A stretch of DNA of 64,000 nucleotides from Candidatus Omnitrophota bacterium (lineage in GTDB: Bacteria; Omnitrophota; Gorgyraeia; 2-01-FULL-45-10). This document shows positions 34,880 to 60,896 of the stretch, piece by piece. Location of the stretch: contig JAQVUX010000005.1 of NCBI GenBank assembly GCA_028699255.1, forward strand, positions 35,944-99,943, read 5' to 3'. The notes below the pieces were generated by a model. The model was not told where the DNA came from. It searched no databases and saw only the letters and a program-made list of their open reading frames with translations. The translations under genes and the position numbers were made by a program. Each line of letters begins with the position of its first letter. The first letter of the stretch is position 1.

Positions 34880-35866
34880 TCAGGGGTGGTACCGAGCATT
34901 TGTTGAGGTACCAAGGCATAATTTAATAACCGCAAATTCCAGCGCAATCTCCGGATCATACCTGGATCTTTTGATATCCATGTCCGCATCCAAAAGCGCC
35001 TTCCTGCCTGTCTCTATCCGCGGCAGATCGAACGCTTTTACCTGGGCAAAAAATCTGTCATAATGATGCCTATTTATCTTGAGCTCGGAAGCTATACGGC
35101 TATCGGGCACCTTTTTCTCAAAAAGTATCCTGCCCTTGAAAAGCCTTTTTATCTGCCAGCATAGCAAACCAACTATCTCATAATGCTTCTTACCGCAAAG
35201 CACCAATTCCGCTATTATCGAAAGCGCCTTCGCGACATCGGCTATCTCAATCGCATCCGTAAGATCAAACACGGAAGAGGTAATATTGCCTCCCGATACC
35301 TCATCCACATCGCCACACTCTATGTTGGGACGGTCTCCTACAAAAGAGGCAAGTTTCTGCAATTCCTGAGATACCGACCCTATGTCATCTCCATAAAGCT
35401 CTTTGAGGGCCAGGGATGCTTCCGGGCTTATCTTCTTGCCGCCGCCCATCGATAACAATAACTCTGCTGTTCTTGCATGGAATTGCGGGCCGACCAATTC
35501 ACCAAACCTGCTAACCACGGCACAGCGCGAAAGCTCGGGATATTTCTTTATAACGGAATCGTCTTCGGCGTCCAGTACGATACAGGCGGATTTTGGCGGA
35601 TTTTTTAAATGGCTTACTATGCGCGCGCCGTCTTCTGCGGAAAGTTGAGCGAAATTCTTAATTACTATCAGACGTTTTGAGGCAAGGAGAGGCATTGTGG
35701 AAATATGATCAAGAATATCTCGGGGGTTTGCGTCGACGCCGTCAAATACCTTGCTATCAAGTTCCCGCGTCTTTGCGTCCAGGAATGCGGAGCTTATCTT
35801 TTTTATAGCCTGTTCTTTGGAATAAACGTCGGTGCCTATTAATAAAAAAACCGCCTGCGCCGCCAT
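34880..35866 (-). CDS. holA: DNA polymerase III delta subunit
   Basis: 328 aa with a delta-subunit AAA+-like fold (LLIGTDVYSKEQAI...). It converges on rpsT with a 1-nt gap. Confidence 0.7.
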   Translation of the reverse strand: MAAQAVFLLIGTDVYSKEQAIKKISSAFLDAKTRELDSKVFDGVDANPRDILDHISTMPLLASKRLIVIKNFAQLSAEDGARIVSHLKNPPKSACIVLDAEDDSVIKKYPELSRCAVVSRFGELVGPQFHARTAELLLSMGGGKKISPEASLALKELYGDDIGSVSQELQKLASFVGDRPNIECGDVDEVSGGNITSSVFDLTDAIEIADVAKALSIIAELVLCGKKHYEIVGLLCWQIKRLFKGRILFEKKVPDSRIASELKINRHHYDRFFAQVKAFDLPRIETGRKALLDADMDIKRSRYDPEIALEFAVIKLCLGTSTNARYHP

Positions 35867-36421
35867 TTACCATACCTCAACGGTTCTCTCCACTACCCTC
35901 CTGGCAAGGTCATCTATGGCCGCGGTCACAGCCGCCGTTTCGCTCTTAGCCTGGCTTCCGACCGAAAAGTATGTGGTCTCACCGGCAAACCCGCTCTCCG
36001 TCCACATAACAGCGCCCGTCTTCCGGTTCGTCATCTCCAGGTTGACTATCAATTTTATTCTATATTCTTCGACATTATCGTTTGCGTCATACCTCAAAGG
36101 TTCCCGCCTAAAGTCCACGAGTTCGCCTTTAAGTATTAAGTCGGCGGAAGACTCGCTGGCTATCTTAAGGGTTCCGTCCAGAAGGAACTTATTTATAACG
36201 GTAGTGGTAATATCTATTTCCATGCCGGGCCTGTACCCTCGGTACATTCGTATATTGCTCTGTTCCGCCGCGACATTAACGGAATTTTTGAAATTATCGA
36301 CCCTTATGGTTTTTATATCGGACGGTAGAAGCGAACGCGTAGTGTAGCCGCAACCTCCTAATATAACAGCAAGCAACAGAACCGGCAATAACAGATAATT
36401 TAGAACCGATCTATTTACCAT
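35867..36421 (-). CDS. lptE: LptE-like LPS-assembly lipoprotein
   Basis: 184 aa with a lipobox LGGCGYT, located next to holA (conserved leuS-lptE-holA neighbourhood). Confidence 0.65.
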   Translation of the reverse strand: MVNRSVLNYLLLPVLLLAVILGGCGYTTRSLLPSDIKTIRVDNFKNSVNVAAEQSNIRMYRGYRPGMEIDITTTVINKFLLDGTLKIASESSADLILKGELVDFRREPLRYDANDNVEEYRIKLIVNLEMTNRKTGAVMWTESGFAGETTYFSVGSQAKSETAAVTAAIDDLARRVVERTVEVW

Positions 36422-36432
36422 AACTATGCTCC

Positions 36433-38676
36433 TTAAAAATATTCCGATCGCTCTATCTCGTCTTCAGGATTATCGTCTTTAGCGACAGTTTCATCCTGTA
36501 CGGGCGGCGTGGCAGGCTTTACGTCATCTTCATTGGTAGTGAGCCGTATCTGGCTCGGCTCTTCGCCTGAACCTTGAGCAGGAATAACGATCTCTTCTTT
36601 GGTTTTTTTGATTTCCGGAGTTTCAGCCGCAACTTCAGTGGCGCCGGTTGTGGTATCTGCCACAACAACGGCTTCCTTCTCAGCAGGTTGAGCTTCAGGC
36701 GTAATCTGAGGCGCGGAGGCAGTTGAAGCTTCCGGGGTAACCGGAGTTTCGGAAACAGCCGGAGCTTCAGAAACGATCGGAGTTTCGGAAATTACCGGGG
36801 CCTCTTCCTTAATCAGCTCTTGCGTCTTCGCTTTTTTGGTAAAAGGATTCCATAATTTCATTCCAGAGCTTTTTGATTTTTTTGATTCTTCGGTAGAAAC
36901 AGCTTCCGCCTTAGCTTTCTTGGCAAACGGATTCCACATCTTCACAGGTTGCGATTTCGGTTTTTCCTGTTCCTGGGTAACTACCGGCTCGCCCGTCTTC
37001 TTAGGCTTATCGAAGCTGAAAGGTGCCCACGCCTTCTTGGCAGGCTTCGCGCCTTCCACATTCGCGCTTTCCGTTTCGGTGGAAACAGTTTCCACCCTGG
37101 CTTTCTTGGCAAAGGGATTCCACATCTTCACGGGTTGCGATTTCGGCTTCGGCTCTTTATATGCGGCCACCGACTCTTCCTGAGAAATTGGCGCCGCCTC
37201 TACCTTCTCGGACTTGTCAAAACTTAAAGGAGTCCATGGTTTTTTGGTTGGCTTCGCGCTTTCCGCTTCGGTAGAAACAGTTTCCGCCTTAGCTTTCTTG
37301 ACAAACGGGTTCCACATCTTCACAGGTTGCGATTTCGGTTTTTCCTGTTCCTGGGTAACTACCGGCTCGCCCGTCTTCTTAGGCTTATCGAAGCTGAAAG
37401 GTGCCCACGCCTTCTTGGCAGGGTTCGCGCCTTCCACATTCGCGCTTTCCGTTTCGGTGGAAACAGTTTCCGCCTTGGCTTTCTTGGCAAAGGGATTCCA
37501 CATCTTCACGGGTTGCGATTTCGGCTTAGCATCTTCCGCCGCATCAGCAGTTTTCGCCTGCTTTTTAAAACTAAACGGCGCCCACGCTTTCTTCTTGGTC
37601 ACTTCTTCACCGGTGGAATCTTTTTTAGCCGATTTTTGTGACTTTACAAATTTTAAAGAGAACGGGCTGGTCTTCCTCTCAAGCCTCTCCGTTAAAGCGC
37701 TTATCTTCGAATTCGCCAGGTCCACATACGAACTTTCCGGATATGTACTGAGAATATCTTTGTAATATATTATCGCGGCCTGGTAACGCCCCTGCTTCTC
37801 GTAAAACTGCGCTGTAAGAAGCGATTTTTCCGAAGCCTTGTCCTTCAGGCGCTGTATTGTTTTGTCCGCTTCCTTAGATAAGGACCTGTCCCTATTCTCC
37901 CGGCTAAAATCTTCGAAAGCCCTGATAGCCTTTTGCGTCGGCTCAACGTCATAAGCCGGCTTAAGAGACGCTTTGTATGCGCAATCGGCCACCTCAAACT
38001 TCGCCTTATCCACAAACGTCGATGTGGGATAATCGTCAAGTATCTTCTGGAAAGCCTGTATCGCTTCGTCGTAACGCTCGGCCTTCTTCGTCGCAAGACC
38101 CATCCTGAACTGCGCCTCATCGGCAAGTCTGCCATACGGGGCGTTCTCCACTACCTTCTTATATATCTCGATAGCTCGGTCGAGCGAAGTCAATATATCG
38201 GCTCCAAGAACCTTGGGACTTTCTTTGACCATAAACATATTCGCTATATTAAACTCCCGGGCCACTATCTCGTCCAGGTTCTCGATGTGCGGGAAATTAT
38301 CTATGGCTTTCTGGTAATTCTGGTAGGCAATAAAAAACTTGTTCATGCTTTCATAACAGAGGCCCACATAATACTGGGACTTGGAGGCATATTCGGAATA
38401 TTCGTATTGTTTTGTGAGTTTTTCGAATTCGGTAGCGGCGCGCTGAAAATCCTTGGAGTTATAAAATGTCATCGCCCACTCGAACTGTTCTTTCGGAGTG
38501 TCTTTAACGGCATTCTTGGGATTTATGAATTTTTTAGTTCCGGGCGTCCAGACCCAGTAGGCCAGGGCCGTATTGGAAAAGAGAAATAATAAAGCTACTG
38601 CGGCTATCGCTATACTTCTGCAAAAAAATTCTTTTTTCATCCGCAAATTATACCACAGGCTGGAGTGTTTAGTCAA
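36433..38676 (-). CDS. BamD/YfiO-like TPR protein with a roughly 450-aa lysine-rich repetitive C-terminal extension
   Basis: The N-terminal 300 aa are TPR repeats. The C-terminus carries KPKSQPVKMWNPFAKKAKAETVSTE five times and KKAWAPFSFDKPKKTGEPVVTQEQE three or four times. Confidence 0.7.
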   Translation of the reverse strand: MTKHSSLWYNLRMKKEFFCRSIAIAAVALLFLFSNTALAYWVWTPGTKKFINPKNAVKDTPKEQFEWAMTFYNSKDFQRAATEFEKLTKQYEYSEYASKSQYYVGLCYESMNKFFIAYQNYQKAIDNFPHIENLDEIVAREFNIANMFMVKESPKVLGADILTSLDRAIEIYKKVVENAPYGRLADEAQFRMGLATKKAERYDEAIQAFQKILDDYPTSTFVDKAKFEVADCAYKASLKPAYDVEPTQKAIRAFEDFSRENRDRSLSKEADKTIQRLKDKASEKSLLTAQFYEKQGRYQAAIIYYKDILSTYPESSYVDLANSKISALTERLERKTSPFSLKFVKSQKSAKKDSTGEEVTKKKAWAPFSFKKQAKTADAAEDAKPKSQPVKMWNPFAKKAKAETVSTETESANVEGANPAKKAWAPFSFDKPKKTGEPVVTQEQEKPKSQPVKMWNPFVKKAKAETVSTEAESAKPTKKPWTPLSFDKSEKVEAAPISQEESVAAYKEPKPKSQPVKMWNPFAKKARVETVSTETESANVEGAKPAKKAWAPFSFDKPKKTGEPVVTQEQEKPKSQPVKMWNPFAKKAKAEAVSTEESKKSKSSGMKLWNPFTKKAKTQELIKEEAPVISETPIVSEAPAVSETPVTPEASTASAPQITPEAQPAEKEAVVVADTTTGATEVAAETPEIKKTKEEIVIPAQGSGEEPSQIRLTTNEDDVKPATPPVQDETVAKDDNPEDEIERSEYF
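36843..37560. repeat. intragenic tandem DNA repeats (about 378-bp period with about 186-bp sub-period) inside the TPR gene
   Basis: 36890-37150 and 37268-37528 are about 97% identical over about 260 bp. A 60-nt motif TTTCTTGGCAAASGGATTCCACATCTTCACRGGTTGCGATTTCGG occurs at least four times. Confidence 0.85.
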
Positions 38677-38692
38677 AAAATAATACTTAAAT

Positions 38693-39058
38693 TTATACGG
38701 CCGCGCTTGGTAAGTTTTTTACGAAATCCATTATCTGCGTTTTGTCGGATTTCGTTATTTCCAAAAACTGATTGCCGAGCTCGTATTGGTCGGATTGCGG
38801 CAACCGACGTATCCACGCGACTTTCGATATCGCTTTTATTGGGGCGGAATTATTCGGAAGACTTATTGTAAGGACGAGACGACAAGCCAAAGACATGAAC
38901 TTGCTGGAGCTGAAGCACGCTCCGCCTTCGCTTATATTGCGAAGCGACGAGCCCTTCGGTAATTCTACCGAGTTCTTGAGATCGCGGTATTCTACAGGTA
39001 AACTTGCGTCTACTCTCTTATACCTTCTCTTCTCTATCGCCGGTATATTGTTTTCCAT
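38693..39058 (-). CDS. PilZ-domain c-di-GMP-binding protein
   Basis: 121 aa with RRYKR (RxxxR) and NISEGG (D/NxSxGG) motifs. Confidence 0.75.
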   Translation of the reverse strand: MENNIPAIEKRRYKRVDASLPVEYRDLKNSVELPKGSSLRNISEGGACFSSSKFMSLACRLVLTISLPNNSAPIKAISKVAWIRRLPQSDQYELGNQFLEITKSDKTQIMDFVKNLPSAAV

Positions 39059-39113
39059 TTTTATGTCGCTCTCCTTAAAATTTTTAGTATAAGGACATAT
39101 TTCATTTCACAAA

Positions 39114-39142
39114 ACTATATCATACAATTACACTTTTGTCAA
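39114..39142 (-). promoter_or_regulatory. sigma-70 promoter of the pilZ-domain gene (TTGACA-N17-TATAGT)
   Basis: On the minus strand, TTGACA maps to 39137-39142 and TATAGT to 39114-39119, with a 17-nt spacer. Confidence 0.6.
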
Positions 39143-39159
39143 GGTAAAGTATAAAAAAG

Positions 39160-41637
39160 TTAGTTTTTGTTAAGAGTTTTTATCAATTTTTTGTTCGACT
39201 TAGGATTAACATCGACCTCGATTGCGCCTGTGGATTTTGTAACGTAACACTTTGATTTTAAATAAGTTAACATATTAATCACATCCTCTGACGGCATCCT
39301 GTATTTACCGGTTGAGCCCACACTTACCACCGATATCTCCGGGGAGACGAGCGAATAAAAACTTTCAGCGACCTTTCGATTGCCCGGATTCCCGCCGTGA
39401 TGAGGAACCTTCACAATATCAGATCGCAGAAAATCTCCGACGGGAAGAAGACGCGACATCGCCCTGTCTTTTATGTCGCCGCAGAAAAGAAACGCGATAT
39501 TTTTGTATTCAATTTTCAACACGATGGAGTTGTCGTTAGAATCCATAAGCTCTTTTTCTCCGGTGGGATTCAGTATAAAAATACTTGTGTCCGCAAACGC
39601 CCGGAGCACATCTCCTTCACTGACGACAAGGCGCCTTATGCCCTTTCGCTCGACGAGCCGCGTATACTTCGAGTATTTTTTCCGGCTCTCCGCGGCCGGA
39701 GTCGCTCCGTTATCGACGACACATCCTACATTAAAATTTTCCAGCACATACAGAAGCCCGCCCATATGATCCTCATGGAAATGCGTCACTACCACGAGGT
39801 CAATCGTCTTTATTCCTTTATTCCACAGGAATGGAGCGATGACAGACTTCCCAACGTCGAACCTGTCCTCCTCTCCGCCGCTACCGCCGTCTATAAGCAT
39901 ATTGCCGCCGCCCGGGAATTCCACAAACGCGCAATCCCCCTGCCCCACATCGAGGAACGTCGCTTCGAGGCTTTTCCGTCCCGTATCCAGAGCCGAAGGC
40001 CAGATCGTAAGATTAAAAAGAATGAGAACGATTATGGTAATGCGCCGTTTTGTTATTTTCATCCTCCCTATTTCAATAATCGGCGGCATGATAAAAATAA
40101 TGGCGAGCGCATAGTAGGCTACCATAAATAACGCTGAGGGTTTGCCGATCCTGAAAAAAGCAAAAGGAATACCCGACAGGTATCCGTTTATAGCAAATAG
40201 AAGTTTTTCCGTAAATTGAAGGATCGACCCGAACCAGAAAGCTATGGATGCCGATAAAAGTGACGCCGCAAAGAAAAGAAAAAATCCGGCGGTAAGGAAA
40301 AATAGTATCGGTATGACTATAAGGTTCGCCACCACGGACACCGGCGATATTATATTAAAATAGGTAGCGACGATCGGAAAACTGCCAATCCACGCGGCGA
40401 TTGACACGGAGACGCCCGTGGTAATGTAAACGTAAATTATAGCGAACCAGTTTCGCTTCTTCCTCTTTCCCTGAATAACGGGAAAGAATGAATTTAATTT
40501 TGTCGTAAATAAAAGCGTGCTCGCTATCGACACGAATGAAAGCTGGAAGCTGGGATCGTAAAGTTCTTTCGGGTTCCATAGAAGTATCGCTATGGCGGCT
40601 ATCGCCAGAGAGTTTATAGCGTCGGCTTCCCTGTTTATGAAATAGCCCAGGACATACATCGCGAACATCACCACCGACCTTATTATAGGAGGGTTCGAAC
40701 CGGCAACGAACGCGTAGAATACCAGAAGTATGGTTGTGATGACAAGGTTGACGCGCTTAGGGATGCGCAGGACGCCGAACACCGCGAGAAATACGGCCGC
40801 GATAAGGCCGACCTGAAGGCCGCTTACGGCGATCACATGCACCGTGCCCGTCTGTATGAACGGGTCCTGTATGCTGTCTTTCAGATCCGTCCTGTCGCCC
40901 ACCAGTATCGCCTTTAAAAAACCGCTGTAAGGCATCGTAAGATATTCGTCTATGAGCGAGGACATCCTGTGGCGGATGCCGAACGATATAGTTTTTATCC
41001 TATCGAGCAAATGATAAGCCGGATTTGAACCTGACTTATCACCATCCCGGCTCAATACCTTAAACCCATCCTTATTTTTGACACGGATGCGGCAATATAT
41101 ATCTTTATTTTCGAGATATTCGGCATAGTCGAATAGGCCGGGGTTCTTCAGGCCTTGAGGTTTAGATATGGCCCCTTCCAATATTACATCGTCGCCAAAC
41201 GACACGCCAGCCATGCTATTTGAAAATATATCGGCCCTGGCTAAACCGCTCACATTCTGCCAGGACGCGTCCTCCTTCAGCATCTGAGCCTTCAGCAGGA
41301 AACTCGTCTTTACAGTATGATATATGGTAGGCGCCGCGACAGGGTCGTCGATAACGCGTCCTTTTAGAACTACGAAATTATTACCGCAGGACGCTACGGA
41401 ACGGGATACGTGATCGGAAGAAATGATCCTTGAATTAAGATGAACGGCCATCCCTGCAAACAGGATCGCCAGGAATAACGCTGTGTGAGCAAGCGCTCTA
41501 TTTTTGGAAAAGAAACCGGAGAGTACGCTGAAAAAAATGGCGGAGAGAATCGTTAAAATTATCGGGATGACGCATATCCCGGAAAGCGCTATGCCAAGGC
41601 AGAACGGTATGAGGGCGTATAGCGCAGGGCGCTTCAT
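39160..41637 (-). CDS. comEC: DNA internalization channel ComEC/Rec2 with a C-terminal metallo-beta-lactamase domain
   Basis: 825 aa with an N-terminal OB domain, a central competence multi-TM domain and a C-terminal MBL fold (HFHEDHMGG). Confidence 0.85.
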   Translation of the reverse strand: MKRPALYALIPFCLGIALSGICVIPIILTILSAIFFSVLSGFFSKNRALAHTALFLAILFAGMAVHLNSRIISSDHVSRSVASCGNNFVVLKGRVIDDPVAAPTIYHTVKTSFLLKAQMLKEDASWQNVSGLARADIFSNSMAGVSFGDDVILEGAISKPQGLKNPGLFDYAEYLENKDIYCRIRVKNKDGFKVLSRDGDKSGSNPAYHLLDRIKTISFGIRHRMSSLIDEYLTMPYSGFLKAILVGDRTDLKDSIQDPFIQTGTVHVIAVSGLQVGLIAAVFLAVFGVLRIPKRVNLVITTILLVFYAFVAGSNPPIIRSVVMFAMYVLGYFINREADAINSLAIAAIAILLWNPKELYDPSFQLSFVSIASTLLFTTKLNSFFPVIQGKRKKRNWFAIIYVYITTGVSVSIAAWIGSFPIVATYFNIISPVSVVANLIVIPILFFLTAGFFLFFAASLLSASIAFWFGSILQFTEKLLFAINGYLSGIPFAFFRIGKPSALFMVAYYALAIIFIMPPIIEIGRMKITKRRITIIVLILFNLTIWPSALDTGRKSLEATFLDVGQGDCAFVEFPGGGNMLIDGGSGGEEDRFDVGKSVIAPFLWNKGIKTIDLVVVTHFHEDHMGGLLYVLENFNVGCVVDNGATPAAESRKKYSKYTRLVERKGIRRLVVSEGDVLRAFADTSIFILNPTGEKELMDSNDNSIVLKIEYKNIAFLFCGDIKDRAMSRLLPVGDFLRSDIVKVPHHGGNPGNRKVAESFYSLVSPEISVVSVGSTGKYRMPSEDVINMLTYLKSKCYVTKSTGAIEVDVNPKSNKKLIKTLNKN

Positions 41638-41640
41638 TCT

Positions 41641-42012
41641 TTATTCCACCGTTATTTTATTGCGGATCTTCTCGAAGAGCGCCACGCCGACGCCTTTCAC
41701 ATTCTTGACATCGTCTATCGAGGCGAAACTCCCGTTCCTGTAACGATATTCCACTATGCGCGCGGCCCTCTTCGCCCCTATGCCTTTTATAGCCGCCAGC
41801 TCTTCGGCGCCGGCAGAGTTTATATTAACCCTCTCCCGCGCAGTCGTGTCGGCGCCTTCCGCAGTGTCGGCATATTTTAATGGATCGAATTTTTCTACAG
41901 GTACCTTGACGGGGGCACGTGATTTTCGCAACGCGGAGACGGCAACTCCTGCGATGAGCGCGGCCACGAGAAATATCAGTATGGCCCTCTCTATGCGCTC
42001 AAGATTTATCAT
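41641..42012 (-). CDS. comEA: ComEA-like DNA-binding protein (helix-hairpin-helix)
   Basis: 123 aa with a signal anchor and a C-terminal HhH (LAAIKGIGAKRAARIVEYR). It lies directly upstream of comEC. Confidence 0.8.
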   Translation of the reverse strand: MINLERIERAILIFLVAALIAGVAVSALRKSRAPVKVPVEKFDPLKYADTAEGADTTARERVNINSAGAEELAAIKGIGAKRAARIVEYRYRNGSFASIDDVKNVKGVGVALFEKIRNKITVE

Positions 42013-42015
42013 CCG

Positions 42016-44538
42016 TCACGTCACTATGTTGACGAGTTTCCTGGGGATTATTATGAAGTCTCTGGCCGGCTTACCGCCCAGCCACGTCTTTACCTTAGGA
42101 TCGGCTATAACCAGCGCCTTGAGCGCGTCGTTATCGATACCTGCGTCTACCTCTATCTTAGACCTGAGCTTTCCGTTTACCTGTATGGGTATGGTCAAAA
42201 CTTTCTCGATGATCGCACCCTTATCGTAAGAAGGCCACTCGTGCTTGAATATACTATTCTCTTTACCCATCATGCGCCACATCTCTTCGGCCATATGCGG
42301 AACGAACGGCGAAAGTAGTATAACAATAGCTTCTACCGCTTCGTTCAAACGTTTTACTAAAACATCATTTTTGGCGGTGATCTTGGTTTTAACATCGCCT
42401 GCTTCATTGGCAAGTTCCATAATCGCGCTTATGGCCGTGTTAAAATGAAATCCTCCCTCCAAATCATCGGTAACCTTCTTGATTGTTTGATGGATTTTAC
42501 GCTTAAGGCCTTCCGCTAATTTATTCTGGATTTCACTATCAGGGTTGTTGTCTACGCCCCGGGTACCGGTAACGTCTCCTACCCCCTTATTTAAAAGAAC
42601 CGCGCCTTCCACTAACCGCCAAACTTTTCCCAGGAATCTGTATGCGCCCTCAGCGCCTCGATCCGACCACTCTGCGTCCTTCTCAGGAGGCCCGATAAAG
42701 AGCGTGTATAGCCTGACGGTGTCGGCGCCATAGTCTTTTATCAACCCGTCGGGAGACACGACATTTCCCTTCGATTTCGACATCTTCGCGCCATCTTTTA
42801 TTATCATTCCCTGAGTAAAAAGATTTTTAAACGGTTCGTCGAAACTTATCGCGCCGATATCATGCAAAAACTTCGTTATAAAACGCGAATACAATAAGTG
42901 CAATATCGCGTGCTCTATCCCGCCTATGTACTGATCGACCGGAAGCCACTTATTCACAAGATCCGAATCGAACGGCCTGTCTTTAAGATGCGGGGAAACA
43001 TATCTAAGGAAATACCAGCTCGAATCGACGAACGTATCCATCGTATCGGTATCTCTGGTGGCCGGGGAATGGCACTTCGGGCATTTGGTGTCCACAAAGC
43101 CCTTAGCGAACTTCAAAGGCGATTCGCCCGTCGGTCTGAACTCCACGTTCTCGGGAAGAAGTACCGGCAGGTCTTTCTCGGGCACGGGAAGCACGCCACA
43201 CTTTGGACAATATATTATCGGAATCGGCGCGCCCCAATACCTCTGTCGCGATATCAGCCAATCCCTTAGCCTGTACTGCACCATCCGCTTACCAAACTTC
43301 TTCTCTTCGAAATATTCCGCTATCTTTTCTAACGCGTCCTGCGACCTTAAGCCGTTGAATTGGGCGGAGTTTATCATCACACCTTCTTCGGTATATGCCT
43401 CTTTCATCCTGTCGGGATCGAGATGGTTTTTCGGATCGTCTATCACTACTTCTATCGGAAGCTTGTACTGTTTCGCGAAATCAAAATCGCGCTCATCGTG
43501 GGCGGGAACCGCCATGATAGCGCCGGTGCCGTATTCCATCAGGATGTAGTTCGCGATCCATATCGGGATCTTGCGGCCGTTTACCGGGTTTATCACGTTC
43601 TTGCCGGTAAAAACGCCTTCCTTCGCGGCCTCGGACTGCGAGCGCGATATCTTCGACTCGTCGCGCATCTTCTGTATGGCCTTCAAGGATACGGCCTCGT
43701 CTGTCGAGCCTTTGATTAAGGCGCCGACAAGCGGATGCTCGGGCGCCAGAGCTATGAACGTAGCGCCGTATATCGTATCGACCCGCGTCGTGAAACATTT
43801 CAGGCTTTCATTCATGCCGTCTATTTTAAAATCTATCTCGACGCCGGAAGATTTGCCTATCCAATTGGACTGCATCGTCTTGACGCGCTCGGGCCATTCG
43901 GTAAGTTTTTCCAGGTCATTCAAAAGGCGGTCGGCGTAATGGGTTATCTTGAAAAACCACTGCTCGAGCTCCTTCTGGTTCACTTCTGTGGAGCACCGCT
44001 CACAGTTGCCGTTCACGACCTGCTCGTTCGCCAAAACGGTTTTGCACGACGGGCACCAGTTGACAAACGCCTTCTTCTTGTAAGCAAGGCCCTTCTCATA
44101 AAGTTTTGTGAATATCCACTGTGTCCACTTATAATATTCAGGCAGGCAGGAAATGACCTCGCGCTCCCAATCGTACTCGACGCCCCACTGGTTGAGCTGG
44201 CGCTTCATCGTGTTGATGTTATTGAGTGTGGATGTTTTTGGGTGGAGACCGCCTTTTATCGCGGCATTCTCGGCGGGTAACCCGAACGAATCGAAGCCCA
44301 TCGGCGCCAGGACGTTGAATCCGCGCATCATCTTGTAACGGGCGACGACATCGCCAATAATATAATTGCGGCCGTGGCCCACGTGAAGCGCGGCCGACGG
44401 ATACGGGAACATCATAAGGCAGTAATATTTATTCGCGGTGTTCTTCGTATCGACATTGAACAGTCGTTTATCGCGCCAGAACTTCTGCCATTTCGGCTCT
44501 ATCGTATCGAAGGGGAAAAGTTTTTCGTCTTGTGTCAT
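42016..44538 (-). CDS. leuS: leucyl-tRNA synthetase
   Basis: 840 aa with HVGH and KMSKS motifs and a CP1 editing domain. Confidence 0.95.
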   Translation of the reverse strand: MTQDEKLFPFDTIEPKWQKFWRDKRLFNVDTKNTANKYYCLMMFPYPSAALHVGHGRNYIIGDVVARYKMMRGFNVLAPMGFDSFGLPAENAAIKGGLHPKTSTLNNINTMKRQLNQWGVEYDWEREVISCLPEYYKWTQWIFTKLYEKGLAYKKKAFVNWCPSCKTVLANEQVVNGNCERCSTEVNQKELEQWFFKITHYADRLLNDLEKLTEWPERVKTMQSNWIGKSSGVEIDFKIDGMNESLKCFTTRVDTIYGATFIALAPEHPLVGALIKGSTDEAVSLKAIQKMRDESKISRSQSEAAKEGVFTGKNVINPVNGRKIPIWIANYILMEYGTGAIMAVPAHDERDFDFAKQYKLPIEVVIDDPKNHLDPDRMKEAYTEEGVMINSAQFNGLRSQDALEKIAEYFEEKKFGKRMVQYRLRDWLISRQRYWGAPIPIIYCPKCGVLPVPEKDLPVLLPENVEFRPTGESPLKFAKGFVDTKCPKCHSPATRDTDTMDTFVDSSWYFLRYVSPHLKDRPFDSDLVNKWLPVDQYIGGIEHAILHLLYSRFITKFLHDIGAISFDEPFKNLFTQGMIIKDGAKMSKSKGNVVSPDGLIKDYGADTVRLYTLFIGPPEKDAEWSDRGAEGAYRFLGKVWRLVEGAVLLNKGVGDVTGTRGVDNNPDSEIQNKLAEGLKRKIHQTIKKVTDDLEGGFHFNTAISAIMELANEAGDVKTKITAKNDVLVKRLNEAVEAIVILLSPFVPHMAEEMWRMMGKENSIFKHEWPSYDKGAIIEKVLTIPIQVNGKLRSKIEVDAGIDNDALKALVIADPKVKTWLGGKPARDFIIIPRKLVNIVT

Positions 44539-46074: not shown

Positions 46075-49000
46075 TTACGCCGCGGACATCACGTTATCGC
46101 TTGCCATCTTATTAAACCGGCGTTTGTCATTATCCAATAATTTTGCGGTTGGCAGTTTGAATGGCACGCTTCGCACGAAATTATTGATATCGGCCTGGGA
46201 CTGCTCTTTCATGGATAACGGCCGGCGGGCAAGAAACTCAAATATTGCTTTTAGACGGCCAATATCATCCAGACGGCGAATTCTTAACGCAAGGATAATC
46301 CCCTCGGGTTGAACATCGTTTTGGCAAGGATCAAAGGCAAGCGCCCTTATACCAATGCCGCTATCCAGGACTTTGTTAACGATCTCCGTACTCGGACAAG
46401 CAACATCGAATTCCACCTCGTAACCCGGGTATTCTATCGCGTAATCAGCTCTCTTCCTATCGATCAATCTCTTCACCTCGTCCACAAAATCGGATGGGCC
46501 ACAAACCGGCAGTAAGGCAACCTTTTCGCCGCATTTCGCGTCCTTTTCCATCTCCTGCTGAAGCAGGGCCCTTAACATATCTCTTTGTATATAAGGAAAT
46601 ATTTCCTCCGCGGCTATATGGCACAGTATCGTTTTCGTTTTCCCGAGATCCTTTGGCCGATATTTTTTATTCTCTTCGTGTATCCGACCGGCCTCGGCAA
46701 CGGCAGAATCGGTTATAATAGCCGGTTGCCCGTTCGGCGTTCTGCGTACTGTGTTCTGGGTCATGCCCGCTTTGCCGCGCCCGGCCGCGGCTTCCGTTTC
46801 CCCTTGCCCCTGAACCTTTGACACTACCTGTCCCGCCTCCCTCTCCATGGGCAGGAGCCCATTTTCCGTCGGGGCGGCCTGTCTTACATGTACATGCGCC
46901 GGTGCATGCACATGTAGAAGAGCGTCATTATCATACGTCAATGGCTGATCCGACGGTTTTAAAGCGCCCGGCTTCTTCGGCTGTTTATAATAACGATTGC
47001 CATCTAAGGGCCCGCCATTCCCGAGCGGCCCGGGATCGGCGCCGGGGCCGTGGGGAAGATTAATATAACGGACACCGTCGAATTTACCGGAGGCGCGATC
47101 ATACATGGATATCGCGAAAGGGCGCTCGGAAAGTCGTATCATTCCCCCACTCCCTTCTTCATAAAATTGAACTACGAGATGCGCTTTTTCGGTCGTCAGA
47201 CACGCCCTGACACTGCCCGCCGGTCTTGCGGCACAAAAATTATCTCTTAACTCGATGGCCGCGAAAAGGATATGCGCCACCCCCGATAGTCCGACATCAT
47301 CGCCGGTATCTATAAACTGAATAGCGTCCGCACCGTCCATATACAGGGTGGCACTGCCGCATGGATATTCTATTTGGCGAAAATTTTTCTCAATCATCTC
47401 TGAAAGAATTTTCGCCAGTACTTCCCGCTCCCCGGGATTTCTGACCAAAGAATACGGTATATTTTCAAGTAAAGGCTGATTTCTTTCTTCCTCATTACTA
47501 TTATCAAGATAAAGGCTGAAAGTATACCCACCGGACTGATTCGTTTGTACAAAATGGGGATGCATTTTTTTAAATGTAACCCCGCCGGACAAGAGTAAAG
47601 GCGTTATGGTATCGATAAACTCATGGGTAGGCGCTCGCATATCTTCATCCAGAAGCGGCATATACATCAGAAATTTATACTGCGACTCTGCGCCGACGGC
47701 GTTGATATACGCAACCTGATAATCATAAGTTCCTCGCGCCACTACGTCCTGCCATCTCTCAGCCTTCTCTATCTTGTAGTCCAGATACTTTTCCTGTTCT
47801 AATACATCCAACACCATCATCTTGGCTAATACATACCTAAACTCATAGCTGTTCTTCTCCGAAAGTATAAATAAGTGCCTTATGCGCTGATGCAGATATT
47901 TGGCATTTAAAAAAGCTATTAGTTGCTCTAAGGCAATTTTAGTCTCATATTTCTGCCCAGGATCCATATCATAATTATATAAGTTGTCATGAGATTCTTT
48001 TAATAAACGATAAAAATCCGGTTCATATACTTGATCATTAATATCCGGATGAGAGACCTTCCGAAAGTGCTCATAGTTTTCCTCAAAAACTCCAACCATC
48101 CCGTCTTGATCATTTACAGGGATCGGCCTGATGAAATCCTCAAACTTTTTAAAGCAATCCGGAGGAAGCGCTTTCCTGAGAAAAGTAGTTTCTATCTTTC
48201 TTGGTTGAATAGGTATGTTGGAAGGGACGGATACGGCCGATGATAACGAATCTGTTAATCGAAGTATTATTTTAACAGCCCATCGGGAGTAGCTGGCAGG
48301 AAAAAATCGGCCCTGGAAAATTGTATCCGATATCCGGTAAGCCCGGGGATGATTATCGATCAACATCCGGCAGAATTTTTCACTTTCCAGTAAGCCTGAC
48401 ATGACGTCGTTTATTAGTACAAAAAATGCCATCGATACCACACTTAAAACGCCTCCTGCGGCGAAATCTAAAACCGGCGCTAACGCAAAAACCCCTGCCC
48501 TGCGTTCAAAATCGGACGGCCCCGTCCGCTCGCCGTATATTGCTTTCATCCTAACCGCGTAAGTATTACCGGAGGGATATTTGGGGTCAACTTCCTGACG
48601 AGAGGTTTCGTCCGCACGCCCGAACACTGACCGATCCGGCGACATTGAGTCGCCCTCAACCTCCGGCGGTCGTAAATATCGCCTGACGCCAGAGTTGCTC
48701 CCGGGGTCCGTCGGGCCGGGCAGGCCTTTAGGCATGTTGGCATAGGAAACCATTCGTGTATCGTCTGCCGAGTCACGCCTTTTGCGGAACCACAGCCCTT
48801 TGAGGCCGGGGAGATCCGTGGACTCGAGATTACGCCGGTCATCCGGAGTTTTAATTCCAAATTTTACCAACTCTTCGTGGGCAATATTTTCATAATCCTT
48901 TATAAAAAATAGATCAATCATCTTTCCGTCGTTCGCAAATTTAAAGGTAACGTATTTATAATCCTTCCCTGCCACCTTGCGGGATCGCCACGTTTCATCA

Positions 49001-49344
49001 ATAAACACGGATTGGTCGGGAAATAATTCGCTATTGAGGCGATTGATCGTTCTTCGAATAATCACATCGTCCGGAAGGTTCGGGGCCATAAATAATTTGC
49101 CCAGCGTATCGGCCGCCAAATTCAACTTCGCCCTGTATTTAAAATCTATTTCGTTTTTAATATCGAAAAGGGTGAAGCGGGATTGCGGGGCAAGTGTTGC
49201 CTGTTGCGGCGTTTGGACTTGCGGCGCCGCCCAGGATAGGTCGTTGAGCAGGAATAGGCAGACCAGGATTAGTGAGATTATTTTATATAGATTGCTTCGC
49301 CGCCACGCCTTAGGCGTATCGTCTCGCAATGACTTTTTATACAT
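46075..49344 (-). CDS. large orphan secreted or membrane-anchored protein (1089 aa) with no recognisable domain
   Basis: It has an N-terminal signal or anchor (IISLILVCLFLLNDLSWAAP) and a His-rich segment HVHAPAHVHV. No catalytic motif is identifiable by eye. Confidence 0.6.
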   Translation of the reverse strand: MYKKSLRDDTPKAWRRSNLYKIISLILVCLFLLNDLSWAAPQVQTPQQATLAPQSRFTLFDIKNEIDFKYRAKLNLAADTLGKLFMAPNLPDDVIIRRTINRLNSELFPDQSVFIDETWRSRKVAGKDYKYVTFKFANDGKMIDLFFIKDYENIAHEELVKFGIKTPDDRRNLESTDLPGLKGLWFRKRRDSADDTRMVSYANMPKGLPGPTDPGSNSGVRRYLRPPEVEGDSMSPDRSVFGRADETSRQEVDPKYPSGNTYAVRMKAIYGERTGPSDFERRAGVFALAPVLDFAAGGVLSVVSMAFFVLINDVMSGLLESEKFCRMLIDNHPRAYRISDTIFQGRFFPASYSRWAVKIILRLTDSLSSAVSVPSNIPIQPRKIETTFLRKALPPDCFKKFEDFIRPIPVNDQDGMVGVFEENYEHFRKVSHPDINDQVYEPDFYRLLKESHDNLYNYDMDPGQKYETKIALEQLIAFLNAKYLHQRIRHLFILSEKNSYEFRYVLAKMMVLDVLEQEKYLDYKIEKAERWQDVVARGTYDYQVAYINAVGAESQYKFLMYMPLLDEDMRAPTHEFIDTITPLLLSGGVTFKKMHPHFVQTNQSGGYTFSLYLDNSNEEERNQPLLENIPYSLVRNPGEREVLAKILSEMIEKNFRQIEYPCGSATLYMDGADAIQFIDTGDDVGLSGVAHILFAAIELRDNFCAARPAGSVRACLTTEKAHLVVQFYEEGSGGMIRLSERPFAISMYDRASGKFDGVRYINLPHGPGADPGPLGNGGPLDGNRYYKQPKKPGALKPSDQPLTYDNDALLHVHAPAHVHVRQAAPTENGLLPMEREAGQVVSKVQGQGETEAAAGRGKAGMTQNTVRRTPNGQPAIITDSAVAEAGRIHEENKKYRPKDLGKTKTILCHIAAEEIFPYIQRDMLRALLQQEMEKDAKCGEKVALLPVCGPSDFVDEVKRLIDRKRADYAIEYPGYEVEFDVACPSTEIVNKVLDSGIGIRALAFDPCQNDVQPEGIILALRIRRLDDIGRLKAIFEFLARRPLSMKEQSQADINNFVRSVPFKLPTAKLLDNDKRRFNKMASDNVMSAA

Positions 49345-52484: not shown

Positions 52485-53342
52485 CTAATCTATTATAACG
52501 ATTTCCGTGCCGATAGGCACTATCGAGTACAACTCCTCAACTTCGGAGTTCTTCATCCTCACACAGCCCTCGGTAACGCTCTTGCCGATGGATTCCGGCT
52601 CGATGGTACCGTGTATGCCGTAACCTTGTTTGGATATGCCCAACCAGCGGGAGCCGAGCACATTTTTCGGATCTTTGGCAGGTATCATGCCTCCTGCGGA
52701 AGGATACCATGGCGGGTCTATAAGCTTGTTGGTGATCTTAAATGTTCCGACGGGGGTGCAGGAGTTTTTACCGGTCGATACGCGGTAGGTCTTCACGATC
52801 TCCTGGTCGTTTTTCAATGTAAGGATATTCTGGGACTTGTCCACGGCGATACTGAATTTCGCTTTGGTTACTTTCAGCTTCTTGCCGGATCTTACCGCCG
52901 CGTCTTTCAGGTTATTCGCCTTCATTATAAGTTCGGACGTGGTGTTGAACTTCTTCGCTATCTTGTTAAGGGTGTCACCTGGCTGAACTTCATAAAGCAT
53001 CGAATCGGGGGTTATTACTGAAGAAAATAGTATTTTAATATTCAGATTATCGAGGGATTCCTGTACCTTTGCGGCATTTCCCGAGGCTGGATACTTTTCT
53101 GTAAGTTTTTGATATGCGTCTTTAGCTTTTACGAGGTCACCCTTCTTCTCGGATTCTACGGCCGTGGATAAATAATCCTGCTCGCTTTCTCCGGGCGCGA
53201 CAACCGCTTTGGGCTCGATGGTCTTGGCCTCCTCGTTAGGGACGCCTGAATTTCTGATGATCCCCAGGATAAGAAGCCCCGCGCATATAAGCATCACGGC
53301 AATAACCGCTATCAAAAGAATGTTTTTATTCACTTTAAGCAC
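52485..53342 (-). CDS. L,D-transpeptidase (YkuD domain) with a LysM domain
   Basis: LysM (YEVQPGDTLNKIAKKF), and YkuD catalytic motifs HGT and GCVRM. Confidence 0.8.
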   Translation of the reverse strand: MLKVNKNILLIAVIAVMLICAGLLILGIIRNSGVPNEEAKTIEPKAVVAPGESEQDYLSTAVESEKKGDLVKAKDAYQKLTEKYPASGNAAKVQESLDNLNIKILFSSVITPDSMLYEVQPGDTLNKIAKKFNTTSELIMKANNLKDAAVRSGKKLKVTKAKFSIAVDKSQNILTLKNDQEIVKTYRVSTGKNSCTPVGTFKITNKLIDPPWYPSAGGMIPAKDPKNVLGSRWLGISKQGYGIHGTIEPESIGKSVTEGCVRMKNSEVEELYSIVPIGTEIVIID

Positions 53343-60281: not shown

Positions 60282-60896
60282 ATGATTTATCATATTTTTA
60301 ACAAAAGTATATCGAATTTTACAATATACAACGATGCTTTTGAGTACTTGCGGATGCTCACAGCTATTCAGTATTACCAATCAAATCCGGGGAAAACCAG
60401 TTTTTCGCGATTTATTAGTTTATTAGAAAAAGAAAAAACGCAAATTCCAACAGAAAATAAGATTGTTGATGTAATCGCGTATTGTCTTATGCCTACCCAC
60501 TTCCATTTCATCTTAAATGAACAAAAAGAAGGCGGAATAGCTTCTTTTACTAACAACCTGCTTAATAGCTATACTCGTTATTTCAATATAAAACATAATA
60601 GAAAAGGGCCTTTATGGCAGGGAAGATCCCGAAGGGTATTAGTAAAGACCGATGAACAACTGCTACACCTCACAAGATACATACATTTGAATCCTGTTAC
60701 GTCATATTTGGTTGACAACCCGGGGAAATGGCCATATTCCTCTTATGATGAGTATTTAAAAATACCAAAAGATCTACAGATATGTAAATATGCTGATTTA
60801 ATAGATATGCAACCAACAATATATATGAATTTCGTAACCGATAGAATTAATTATCAGCGAGAATTAGCAAAAATAAAGGACTTACTCCTTGAGTGA
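60282..60896 (+). mobile_element. REP-associated tyrosine transposase (RAYT; IS200/IS605 TnpA Y1 family)
   Basis: 204 aa with the HuH motif CLMPTHFHFIL and a catalytic Tyr in LTRYIHLNPV. An AGGAGGG RBS is present. The gene is flanked by inverted REP clusters and its coding sequence is AT-rich (about 33% GC). Confidence 0.85.

What the first reader, a model, noticed from the sequence alone, without database searches (positions are those of the whole stretch)
36433..38676. BamD-like TPR protein fused to a long lysine-rich tail built from near-identical DNA tandem repeats carrying W-x-P-F motifs
The gene encodes about 300 aa of TPR (BamD/YfiO-like) followed by about 450 aa of repeats. MWNPFAKKAKAETVSTE occurs five times and KAWAPFSFDKPKKTGEPVVTQEQE three or four times. 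At the DNA level, two 260-bp blocks (36890-37150 and 37268-37528) are about 97% identical, with a 186-bp sub-period. Such repeats are substrates for slipped-strand or recombinational expansion and contraction, so the tail length is probably variable between strains. The repeated aromatic WNPF/WAPF motifs look like short linear binding motifs, perhaps for peptidoglycan or a partner protein. A BamD homolog with this extension is not something I recognise.
Basis: seen in the sequence. Interest (0 to 1): 0.55.

Follow-up and report, generated by a model that had tools for sequence, protein, structure and literature searches.

The report
BamD with disordered Trp-motif tail
This is the outer-membrane assembly factor BamD of an uncultured Omnitrophota bacterium, carrying a long floppy tail studded with nine copies of a lysine-flanked Trp-x-Pro-Phe motif; the motif is conserved across a whole subgroup of the phylum, has not been described, and what it binds is unknown.

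Summary
Gene 36433-38640 (-) encodes a 735-aa protein, already annotated in NCBI as Omnitrophota BamD. It has a signal peptide, a BamD-type TPR domain (aa 49-323; TIGR03302 scores 112 bits against a cutoff of 81) and a 412-aa tail that AlphaFold2 predicts to be entirely disordered. The tail carries 9 W-x-P-[FL] motifs. Two 262-nt DNA blocks are 97.7% identical, 378 nt apart and in frame.

New here: the motif is not a local oddity. In 120 homologues there are 389 such motifs, all in the tails, against 15±4 in shuffled tails. The consensus is KKK-[GASP]-W-x-P-[LF]-[SN]-F-x-x-KKK. The tail is limited to one Omnitrophota subclade. Close relatives (61-68% identical) lack it, and copy number runs from 0 to 9. 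Several species show their own recent in-frame duplications.

All homologues lack a lipobox. They have an AxA cleavage site followed by an invariant YWxWTPxTKKFxNPK.

No conspecific sequences were found, so strain-level length variation could not be tested. The ligand is unknown. I favour weak multivalent binding to anionic membrane surfaces (about 0.4) over a protein partner (about 0.3). I class it as a new variant of a known kind, of moderate interest.

The parts
36433..38640 (-). bamD-family gene, 735 codons plus stop. The mechanical ORF extends to a TTG at 38676.
38560..38640 (-). Signal peptide, aa 1-27 (MKKEFFCRSIAIAAVALLFLFSNTALA). It has an AxA signal-peptidase-I type site and no lipobox.
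   Evidence: Read from the sequence. Among 173 homologues, position -1 is Ala in 157 and position -3 is Ala or Ser in 156.
38497..38559 (-). Conserved mature N-terminus YWVWTPGTKKFINPKNAVKDT. The family-wide form is [YF]W.WTP.TKKF.NPK.
   Evidence: Invariant columns W29 W31 T32 K36 K37 F38 N40 P41 K42. AF2 predicts a low-confidence beta-hairpin.
37672..38496 (-). BamD-type TPR domain, aa 49-323.
   Evidence: AF2 pLDDT is above 93, with 13 helices. The top Foldseek hit is R. marinus BamD 3qky, and E. coli BamD 5ayw_D gives TMt 0.74. phmmer against the PDB gives 3qky at 9e-13.
36436..37671 (-). Intrinsically disordered C-terminal tail, aa 324-735.
   Evidence: AF2 predicts all coil, with pLDDT 38-55 in 10-aa blocks. 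Composition is rich in K, A, E, P, S and T.
36811..37596 (-). Basic motif array, aa 349-610, net charge +21. It holds nine W-x-P-[FL] motifs of two kinds: four KK[AP]W[AT]P[FL]SF and five [KL]WNPFxKKA[KR].
   Evidence: The motif cores lie at 37567-37593, 37483-37509, 37390-37416, 37297-37323, 37219-37245, 37105-37131, 37012-37038, 36919-36945 and 36835-36861.
37266..37535 (-). Copy 1 of the recent in-frame duplication. The duplicated unit is 378 nt (126 codons).
36888..37157 (-). Copy 2 of the recent in-frame duplication, 97-97.7% identical to copy 1.
36436..36810 (-). Acidic Pro/Thr/Glu-rich distal tail, aa 611-735, net charge -19. It includes an 18-nt repeat x 2.9 at 36739-36791.
36436..36477 (-). 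C-terminal box DDNPEDEIERSEYF, conserved within the subclade as ..DDQIEKSEY.
35867..36421 (-). lptE, which has the lipobox LGGC. It starts 11 nt downstream of the bamD stop codon and is probably in the same operon (context).

Best explanation
Shown. The gene encodes the Omnitrophota orthologue of the outer-membrane-protein assembly factor BamD. It sits in a conserved pilZ-bamD-lptE-holA cluster. Unlike textbook BamD, it is exported with a cleavable AxA signal peptide and has no lipid-anchor cysteine. Its mature N-terminus is an invariant aromatic/basic segment, YWxWTPxTKKFxNPK. In one subclade of the phylum the TPR domain is followed by an intrinsically disordered tail. In this genome the tail is 412 aa. 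It consists of a basic array of nine copies of a conserved motif (consensus KKK-small-W-x-P-[LF]-[SN]-F-x-x-KKK; Pro can be replaced by an aliphatic residue) and an acidic distal segment ending in a clade-conserved C-terminal box. The array grows and shrinks by in-frame duplication and deletion of 60-380-nt units. Here the most recent event is a 378-nt duplication whose copies are still 97.7% identical. In several lineages the tail has been lost altogether.

Inferred mechanism, my best guess at about 0.4. Each motif is a weak interfacial membrane anchor. The flanking lysines are attracted to anionic phospholipid head groups, and Trp, Leu/Phe and Phe insert into the interface of a periplasm-facing leaflet. 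Many copies on a flexible chain would give avidity. That would hold or concentrate the non-lipidated BamD, and with it the BAM machine, at the membrane. Copy number would tune the strength and reach of this attachment.
For: - BamD identity.
- Disorder.
- Motif conservation and enrichment: 389 motifs against 15±4 in shuffles, none in TPR domains. In the logo, K is 78% at -2 and 64% at -3, F is 83% at +5, and K is ~40% at +8 to +10.
- Variants without proline keep the hydrophobic pattern W-x-[LIMA]-F-x-[FL]. This suggests that hydrophobicity plus charge is selected, rather than one exact shape.
- The Wimley-White interfacial free energy of the WAPFSF/WTPLSF cores is -2.8 to -3.4 kcal/mol. Each motif sits in a window of +3 to +6 net charge.
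- No lipobox was found in 173 homologues, although lptE next door has one and the window encodes Lnt and a LolC/E-like protein.
- AF2 gives no sign that the motifs dock on the protein's own TPR domain.
- Turnover by duplication. Patchy tail presence.
- From my own knowledge, not tested: the motif resembles the MARCKS effector domain (KKRFSFKKSFKL) and the Trp/Pro-rich cationic peptides indolicidin and tritrpticin. Both classes are unstructured and bind at membrane interfaces.
Against: - No experiment or structure supports membrane binding.
- The positional conservation (small residue at -1, Pro at +2, Ser/Asn at +4, Phe at +5) is tighter than generic basic-aromatic membrane clusters need. It fits a protein-recognised motif equally well.
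- Tail-less homologues also lack a lipid anchor, so the tail cannot be the primary means of membrane or BAM association. Close relatives manage without it.
- The five WNPF-type copies in this genome lack the +5 Phe and have only about -1 kcal/mol of core hydrophobicity.
- BamD function itself is inferred from homology only.
Confidence: 0.4

Rival explanations
1. The motifs are protein-binding short linear motifs. On this reading the tail is a multivalent 'fishing line' that recruits a periplasmic or outer-membrane partner to BAM. Candidates are BamA POTRA domains, a SurA/Skp-type chaperone carrying client proteins, a protease, or the TPR groove of neighbouring BamD molecules (which would cluster BAM).
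For: - Core positions are fixed across orthologues whose spacers are unalignable.
- The first motif is positionally conserved just after the TPR domain: W353 is present in at least 90% of aligned sequences.
- Each subclade also conserves a distinct C-terminal box, which is typical of disordered regions that carry docking motifs.
- There is precedent in BAM: BamC and BamF bind BamD through a disordered region with a conserved motif (PMC3359395).
- From my own knowledge: SurA prefers aromatic-x-aromatic peptides containing Pro.
Against: - No partner has been identified.
- AF2 gives no confident docking of the motif on the protein's own TPR domain, in either the full-length or the truncated construct. 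pLDDT at the motifs is ~44-53.
- Pro at +2 can be replaced by Leu, Ile, Met or Ala.
- The motif array was found on no other protein in the window or in 64 related loci. The wider database searches were too insensitive to settle this.
Confidence: 0.3
2. The tail is a peptidoglycan-binding or periplasm-spanning spacer. It would tie BAM to the cell wall, or set the distance to it, as RmpM/Pal-type subunits or long Lpo-type linkers do in other bacteria.
For: - A disordered chain of about 400 aa can reach the wall or beyond (inference from its length).
- The positive charge of the array (+21) would be attracted to anionic peptidoglycan.
- BAM-peptidoglycan contacts are documented in E. coli (PMC9242858, PMC7918090; titles and abstracts seen).
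Against: - No known peptidoglycan-binding domain or motif matched (Pfam and NCBIfam).
- A pure spacer would not need conserved Trp/Pro/Phe cores.
- The tail has been lost repeatedly in close relatives.
Confidence: 0.1
3. The repeat block in this contig is an assembly artefact, or the tail is functionally neutral low-complexity sequence.
For: - The source is a short-read metagenome-assembled genome.
- The copies share exact runs of up to 113 nt, so the copy number could be mis-assembled.
- Five of the 6 differences between copies are nonsynonymous, which indicates relaxed spacers.
- Tail-less relatives exist.
Against: - The duplication is in frame, and the copies differ at 6 sites rather than being identical.
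- Comparable tails and independent duplications occur in many MAGs from different studies and assemblers.
- The motif cores are conserved across 40-75%-identity orthologues, 26-fold above shuffled expectation.
Confidence: 0.07
4. The protein is not the functional BamD. It would instead be another envelope TPR factor (CpoB/YbgF-like, or an LPS-transport helper, given lptE next door) that merely scores as BamD.
For: - There is no lipid anchor.
- The second-best HMM is YbgF/CpoB at 60 bits.
- The gene is immediately upstream of lptE in every locus.
- One database ORF (P0120) fuses BamD and LptE domains.
Against: - The BamD HMM scores above its curated cutoff, while YbgF is below its own (60.4 against 90.1).
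- The best solved-structure matches by both sequence and fold are BamDs.
Confidence: 0.1

Closest known systems
BamD/YfiO (E. coli, Rhodothermus marinus, Neisseria, Flavobacterium johnsoniae BAM subunit)
   Same: It has the same five-TPR all-alpha domain. It scores above the curated cutoffs of TIGR03302 and PF13525. The best PDB matches by sequence and by fold are BamDs. It lies in an envelope-biogenesis gene neighbourhood.
   Different: It has no lipobox and no lipid anchor. It has a conserved aromatic/basic mature N-terminus. It carries a 412-aa disordered tail with a repeated motif.
Alpha-proteobacterial BamD with a ~60-residue C-terminal extension (Anwari et al. 2012, PMC3359395)
   Same: It is a BamD carrying extra C-terminal sequence beyond the TPR domain.
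   Different: That extension is short, was not analysed, and is not reported to hold repeated motifs. The tail here is up to ~490 aa, repetitive, and built around a conserved W-x-P-[LF]-x-F unit.
BamC/BamF disordered N-terminal regions with a conserved motif that dock onto BamD (PMC3359395)
   Same: In both cases a disordered segment with a conserved motif forms part of BAM accessory architecture.
   Different: Those segments are separate lipoproteins with a single motif that binds the BamD TPR. Here the disordered region is fused to BamD itself, is multivalent, and AF2 shows no docking on the TPR.
MARCKS effector domain and Trp/Pro-rich cationic peptides such as indolicidin and tritrpticin (own knowledge; analogy only)
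   Same: These are unstructured, Lys-flanked aromatic clusters (FSFKK; W-P-rich). They bind anionic membrane interfaces by charge plus aromatic insertion.
   Different: They are unrelated in sequence ancestry and cellular context. Membrane binding of the BamD motif is untested.
Repeat-driven length-variable bacterial envelope proteins (contingency-type repeats)
   Same: They also have in-frame tandem repeats whose number differs between lineages.
   Different: The units here are long (about 60-380 nt) and diverge quickly. No on/off frameshifting is possible, and no within-species data exist.

Membership tests
BamD (TIGR03302 / PF13525 YfiO) | Profile-HMM score above the curated cutoff | tested here: met
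   TIGR03302 scores 112.2 bits against 81.4. PF13525 scores 56.2 against 25.
BamD (TIGR03302 / PF13525 YfiO) | Five-TPR all-alpha fold resembling solved BamD | tested here: met
   AF2 pLDDT is above 93 for aa 49-323. The top Foldseek hit is 3qky (R. marinus BamD). Other hits are 5ayw_D (TMt 0.74, rmsd 2.9) and 5waq (TMt 0.67). The top hits have low TM-scores because the disordered tail was included in the query.
BamD (TIGR03302 / PF13525 YfiO) | Outer-membrane lipoprotein: lipobox with Cys at +1 of the mature protein | tested here: not met
   The signal peptide ends ..TALA|YWVW. The only N-terminal Cys precedes the hydrophobic core. The same holds for 173 homologues. No SignalP or LipoP was available, so this was judged from the sequence pattern.
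BamD (TIGR03302 / PF13525 YfiO) | Binds BamA POTRA5 and is needed for OMP assembly | not testable with these tools
   This needs co-purification or complex modelling with the organism's BamA, which is not in the window.
CpoB/YbgF (TIGR02795) | HMM score above the curated cutoff | tested here: not met
   The score is 60.4 bits against a cutoff of 90.1.
Intrinsically disordered region carrying short linear motifs | No predicted stable structure; conserved short cores within unalignable, fast-evolving flanks | tested here: met
   AF2 predicts coil at pLDDT 38-55. Mean alignment column identity is 18-30%, with the tail consensus mostly undefined.
Basic-aromatic peripheral membrane-binding cluster (MARCKS-ED type) | Aromatic residues flanked by Lys/Arg in an unstructured segment | tested here: met
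   See the logo and the charge and Wimley-White values.
Basic-aromatic peripheral membrane-binding cluster (MARCKS-ED type) | Measured binding to acidic lipid bilayers | not testable with these tools
   This needs liposome assays.
Slipped-strand (simple-sequence) contingency locus | Short repeat units (1-9 nt) whose number changes at high frequency within a species | tested here: not met
   The units are 186/378 nt. The only short repeat is an 18-nt unit x 2.9 at 77% match. No conspecific sequences were found for comparison.

The most novel reading that the evidence does not exclude
In one Omnitrophota lineage BamD has replaced lipid anchoring and accessory lipoproteins with a self-contained, tunable multivalent tether. 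The conserved N-terminal aromatic hairpin, together with an expandable array of KKxWxPΦxF anchors, would organise BAM into membrane-bound clusters or bridge envelope layers. That would be a previously unknown way of positioning the OMP-assembly machine. The motif would be a new class of bacterial periplasmic short linear motif.
Probability: 0.15. Interest if true: 0.65.

Novelty: new variant of a known kind. Interest (0 to 1): 0.45.

Why it matters
BamD is the one BAM accessory subunit considered universal and essential, and it is always described as a lipoprotein. Here a whole phylum appears to run a non-lipidated BamD. One subclade adds a rapidly evolving disordered tail built around a conserved Trp-Pro-aromatic motif.

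If the motif proves to be a membrane anchor or a docking site, it would show how BAM is positioned or supplied with substrates in a deep-branching, uncultured, often ultra-small group of bacteria. It would also add a rare example of a multivalent short linear motif working in the bacterial periplasm.

For genome annotation, the long repeat-rich tail should not be treated as an error or as a separate gene.

Tried and rejected
1. A tail-only phmmer search of the 5.8-billion-protein set found nothing, not even the query itself. The cause is probably composition filtering.
2. A 32-column motif profile searched against 1.84 billion representatives gave only 7 hits. Six were BamD tail fragments and one was a junk repeat protein. 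This is too insensitive to say whether the motif occurs on other proteins.
3. The same idea with a 44-column profile through the word-indexed search gave 78 candidates, none scoring.
4. A degenerate DNA scan of JGI metagenome contigs for the peptide KSQPVKMWNPF gave 0 hits. No conspecific strains were found, so length polymorphism could not be tested.
5. I asked whether the motif docks on the protein's own TPR domain. AF2 on the full-length protein and on a construct ending just after the first motif left the motifs at pLDDT ~44-53. There is no support, though this is weak negative evidence.
6. I asked whether tail-less relatives encode the tail as a separate downstream gene. They do not: their bamD stops 0-20 nt before lptE, and no other ORF in 64 loci carries 2 or more motifs, apart from chance pairs in ComEC.
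7. A link to the neighbouring comEC (a DNA-binding lysine-rich tail) was rejected. The comEC-pilZ-bamD order is also found in tail-less genomes.
8. The opposite-strand ORFs across the repeats (36836-37765, +) are mirror-image by-products of the repeats and have no support.
9. P0126, a 170-aa 'stand-alone tail', lies on a 1.5-kb contig behind a cut 256-aa ORF. It is probably a split gene call.
10. Literature searches found no description of an Omnitrophota BamD tail or of a non-lipoprotein BamD.
Full report
**1. What is at the coordinates**

The minus-strand ORF 36433..38676 exists. Its mechanical TTG start adds 12 residues. The ATG at 38640 gives a 735-aa product identical to NCBI MDD3905926.1, 'outer membrane protein assembly factor BamD [Candidatus Omnitrophota bacterium]', from a 166-kb MAG contig. 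So the organism is an uncultured Omnitrophota bacterium, and the gene is already auto-annotated as BamD.

The window is ordinary chromosome. It holds the dcw genes, rpoD/dnaG, a lolC/E-like gene, lysS, secA, lnt, prfB, uvrC, murJ, rpsT, holA, lptE, bamD, pilZ, comEC and leuS.

**2. Checking the observation**

The N-terminal part scores as BamD above curated cutoffs: TIGR03302 112.2 against 81.4, and PF13525 56.2 against 25. YbgF/CpoB stays below its cutoff.

The DNA repeats are as described:
- The repeat finder gives two 270-nt copies at 36888-37157 and 37266-37535, 97% identical and 378 nt apart.
- TRF gives period 186 x 3.4 copies.
- Base by base, 262 nt differ at 6 sites. Five are nonsynonymous and one synonymous, and none touches a W-x-P-F core.
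- The longest exact run is 113 nt, and the 378-nt period is 126 codons, so the duplication is in frame.

The tail contains nine W-x-P-[FL] motifs, which account for every Trp in the tail. Four are of the type KK[AP]W[AT]P[FL]SF and five of the type [KL]WNPFxKKA[KR].

**3. Anatomy of the protein**

AlphaFold2 with a 118-sequence alignment gives a confident TPR domain (aa 49-323, pLDDT above 93). From aa ~330 to the end there is coil only, at pLDDT 38-55.

By fold, the best solved match is R. marinus BamD (3qky). E. coli BamD within the BAM complex aligns at TMt 0.74 and rmsd 2.9 Å. By sequence, 3qky is also the top match, at 9e-13.

The tail has two parts:
- A basic motif array, aa 349-610, net charge +21.
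- An acidic Pro/Thr/Glu-rich distal part, aa 611-735, net charge -19. It contains a small 18-nt repeat and ends ..DDNPEDEIERSEYF.

**4. The motif is conserved across a clade**

The 120 best homologues are all Omnitrophota where a source names them. They are 41-75% identical over the matched part and 412-739 aa long.

Counting W-x-P-[FLIMVWY] gives 389 motifs, all beyond residue ~320. Composition-preserving shuffles of the same tails give 15.1 ± 4.0 (maximum 27), and the TPR domains have none.

Aligning 380 instances gives this logo:
- K at -4, -3 and -2 (44%, 64% and 78%).
- A small residue at -1.
- W at 0.
- K, N, T, S or A at +1.
- P at +2.
- L or F at +3.
- S or N at +4.
- F at +5 (83%).
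- K at +8 to +10 (~40%).
- P at +11.

Most tail Trp residues outside this pattern sit in W-x-[LIMA]-F-x-[FL], for example KKPWNLFGFG. So Pro can be replaced by an aliphatic residue. Motifs are typically 20-34 residues apart, with a median of 30.

Tail C-termini are conserved within subclades..DDQIEKSEY (ours)..WKPLYFGTNDEPMATTNRRW..TDDPNVE.QDDDRI and ..IESSVEK...

**5. Distribution and turnover**

A scan of one genome per species gave 64 loci. All were Omnitrophota or Ratteibacteria, though some carry other automatic labels.

Most of the phylum has a tail-less protein of 305-340 aa. Tails of ~57 aa or more (up to ~490 aa; 1-8 motifs in these loci, 9 in the window) occur in one subclade of a neighbour-joining tree of the TPR domains. 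Tail-less members at 61-68% identity to ours (L011, L051, L019, L034, L041, L018, L025) are interspersed among the tailed ones. One protein (L027) has a 257-aa tail without the motif.

The tree has no support values, so 'one gain, several losses' is the parsimonious reading and is not demonstrated.

In tail-less genomes bamD stops 0-20 nt before lptE, and no separate ORF carries the array.

Other species show their own recent in-frame duplications, with different unit lengths:
- L003: 177 nt at 98.9%.
- L001: 139 nt at 95%.
- L016: 144 nt at 93.8%.
- L006: 163 nt at 92%.
- L007: 61 nt at 100%.

In the window, L001, L003 and L061, motif units resemble each other more within a protein than between species (0.78 against 0.46 for the window). 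In other species the units are older. So the tail expands, contracts and disappears over evolutionary time.

Within-species variation could not be examined. The protein cluster has a single member. The listed homologues are at most 75% identical over the matched part. A degenerate DNA scan of JGI metagenomes for KSQPVKMWNPF found nothing.

**6. The protein is not a lipoprotein**

In 173 homologues with intact N-termini, the residue before the invariant [YF]W.WTP.TKKF.NPK is Ala in 157, and position -3 is Ala or Ser in 156. This is a signal-peptidase-I pattern.

Only 9 sequences have a lipobox-like tetrapeptide. In all of them it lies inside the hydrophobic core, well before the AxA site.

The lipoprotein pathway is nevertheless present. 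lptE next door has LGGC/AGCGYT in every locus. The window also encodes Lnt and a LolC/E-type permease.

AF2 tentatively folds the conserved N-terminal segment as a small beta-hairpin (pLDDT ~60). This segment is present whether or not there is a tail.

**7. How it most likely works**

Firmly supported: this is a BamD-family TPR protein with a disordered, clade-specific, repeat-evolving tail that displays a conserved basic-aromatic motif many times over.

The ligand is inferred. I favour interfacial binding to anionic membrane surfaces, at about 0.4, for these reasons:
- The lysine flanks.
- The invariant Trp.
- Tolerance of Pro-to-aliphatic substitutions.
- Favourable interfacial hydrophobicity of the WxPΦxF cores (-2.8 to -3.4 kcal/mol).
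- The absence of a lipid anchor.
- The resemblance, recalled from my own knowledge and untested, to the MARCKS effector domain and to Trp/Pro-rich cationic peptides.

Three points count against it:
- The register of the motif is more precise than such clusters need.
- The WNPF-type copies are only weakly hydrophobic.
- Tail-less relatives also lack a lipid anchor, so the tail is an accessory, not the anchor.

The main rival, at about 0.3, is a protein-docking motif array that recruits a chaperone, BamA POTRA domains or another BamD. It is supported by the positional conservation, the conserved first motif (W353 in at least 90% of sequences), the clade-specific C-terminal boxes, and the BamC/BamF precedent (PMC3359395). 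AF2 gave no confident docking of the motif on the protein's own TPR domain, in either the full-length or the truncated construct.

Peptidoglycan tethering or a spacer role (about 0.1) and artefact or neutral sequence (about 0.07) are less likely. The reasons are given under the rival explanations.

**8. Comparison with what is known**

By sequence and fold, the TPR domain belongs to the BamD family. It fails the 'lipoprotein' feature, so I file it as a BamD-family homologue with an atypical, non-lipidated N-terminus. Its function in BAM is inferred.

A ~60-residue C-terminal extension on alpha-proteobacterial BamD is mentioned but not analysed in PMC3359395.

Full-text searches found no paper describing an Omnitrophota BamD tail, the W-x-P-Φ-x-F motif, or a non-lipoprotein BamD.

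**9. Verdict**

This is a new variant of a known kind.

It would interest envelope-biogenesis specialists for two reasons: a non-lipidated BamD, and a periplasmic multivalent motif. It does not, however, open a long-standing question, and the mechanism is unproven. Interest is 0.45.

Noticed in passing
window 38497-38640; all loci L001-L062: Every Omnitrophota/Ratteibacteria BamD homologue has an AxA signal-peptidase-I site followed by an invariant mature N-terminus [YF]W.WTP.TKKF.NPK, and no lipobox. This is a phylum-wide non-lipidated BamD. AF2 tentatively predicts a beta-hairpin for the segment.
   Followed up: partly
window 34880-44538: bamD, with pilZ and comEC, sits inside the classical leuS...lptE-holA cluster. 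The order PilZ-BamD-LptE-HolA-MurJ-UvrC is conserved across the phylum.
   Followed up: partly
protein P0120: A 588-aa database ORF carries BamD and LptE Pfam domains and ends like LptE (..ARRIVERTIENW). It is either a real BamD-LptE fusion or a frameshift/stop-loss error.
   Followed up: no
protein P0121: The N-terminus looks like nucleoside-diphosphate kinase joined to the last BamD TPR plus tail. This is probably a chimeric assembly or gene call.
   Followed up: no
tails of P0002-P0119: Tail C-termini are conserved by subclade..DDQIEKSEY..WKPLYFGTNDEPMATTNRRW..TDDPNVE.QDDDRI..IESSVEK... This suggests a second, terminal docking element.
   Followed up: partly
L027 6001-7746: This BamD homologue has a 257-aa tail that contains no W-x-P motif at all.
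   Followed up: no
window 46075-49344 (-), 13571-14539 (-), 60282-60896 (+): ORFs of 1089, 322 and 204 aa have no Pfam match at E<=1e-5.
   Followed up: no
window 36739-36791: An 18-nt repeat x 2.9 (77% match) encodes (V/I)SE(T/A)P units in the acidic distal tail.
   Followed up: no
window 52485-53342 (-): This ORF is a LysM plus YkuD L,D-transpeptidase, so the genome can make 3-3 cross-links or attach proteins to peptidoglycan. This could matter if the lysine-rich tail were a substrate.
   Followed up: no
loci L009, L010, L012, L020, L023, L024, L027, L033, L038-L040: Genome records titled 'uncultured Planctomycetia/Planctomycetales' carry the Omnitrophota-type BamD and its synteny. The automatic taxonomic labels are probably wrong.
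   Followed up: no
window 36836-37765 (+): Several 83-183-aa ORFs on the opposite strand of the repeats are mirror-image by-products of the repeat structure, not genes.
   Followed up: partly
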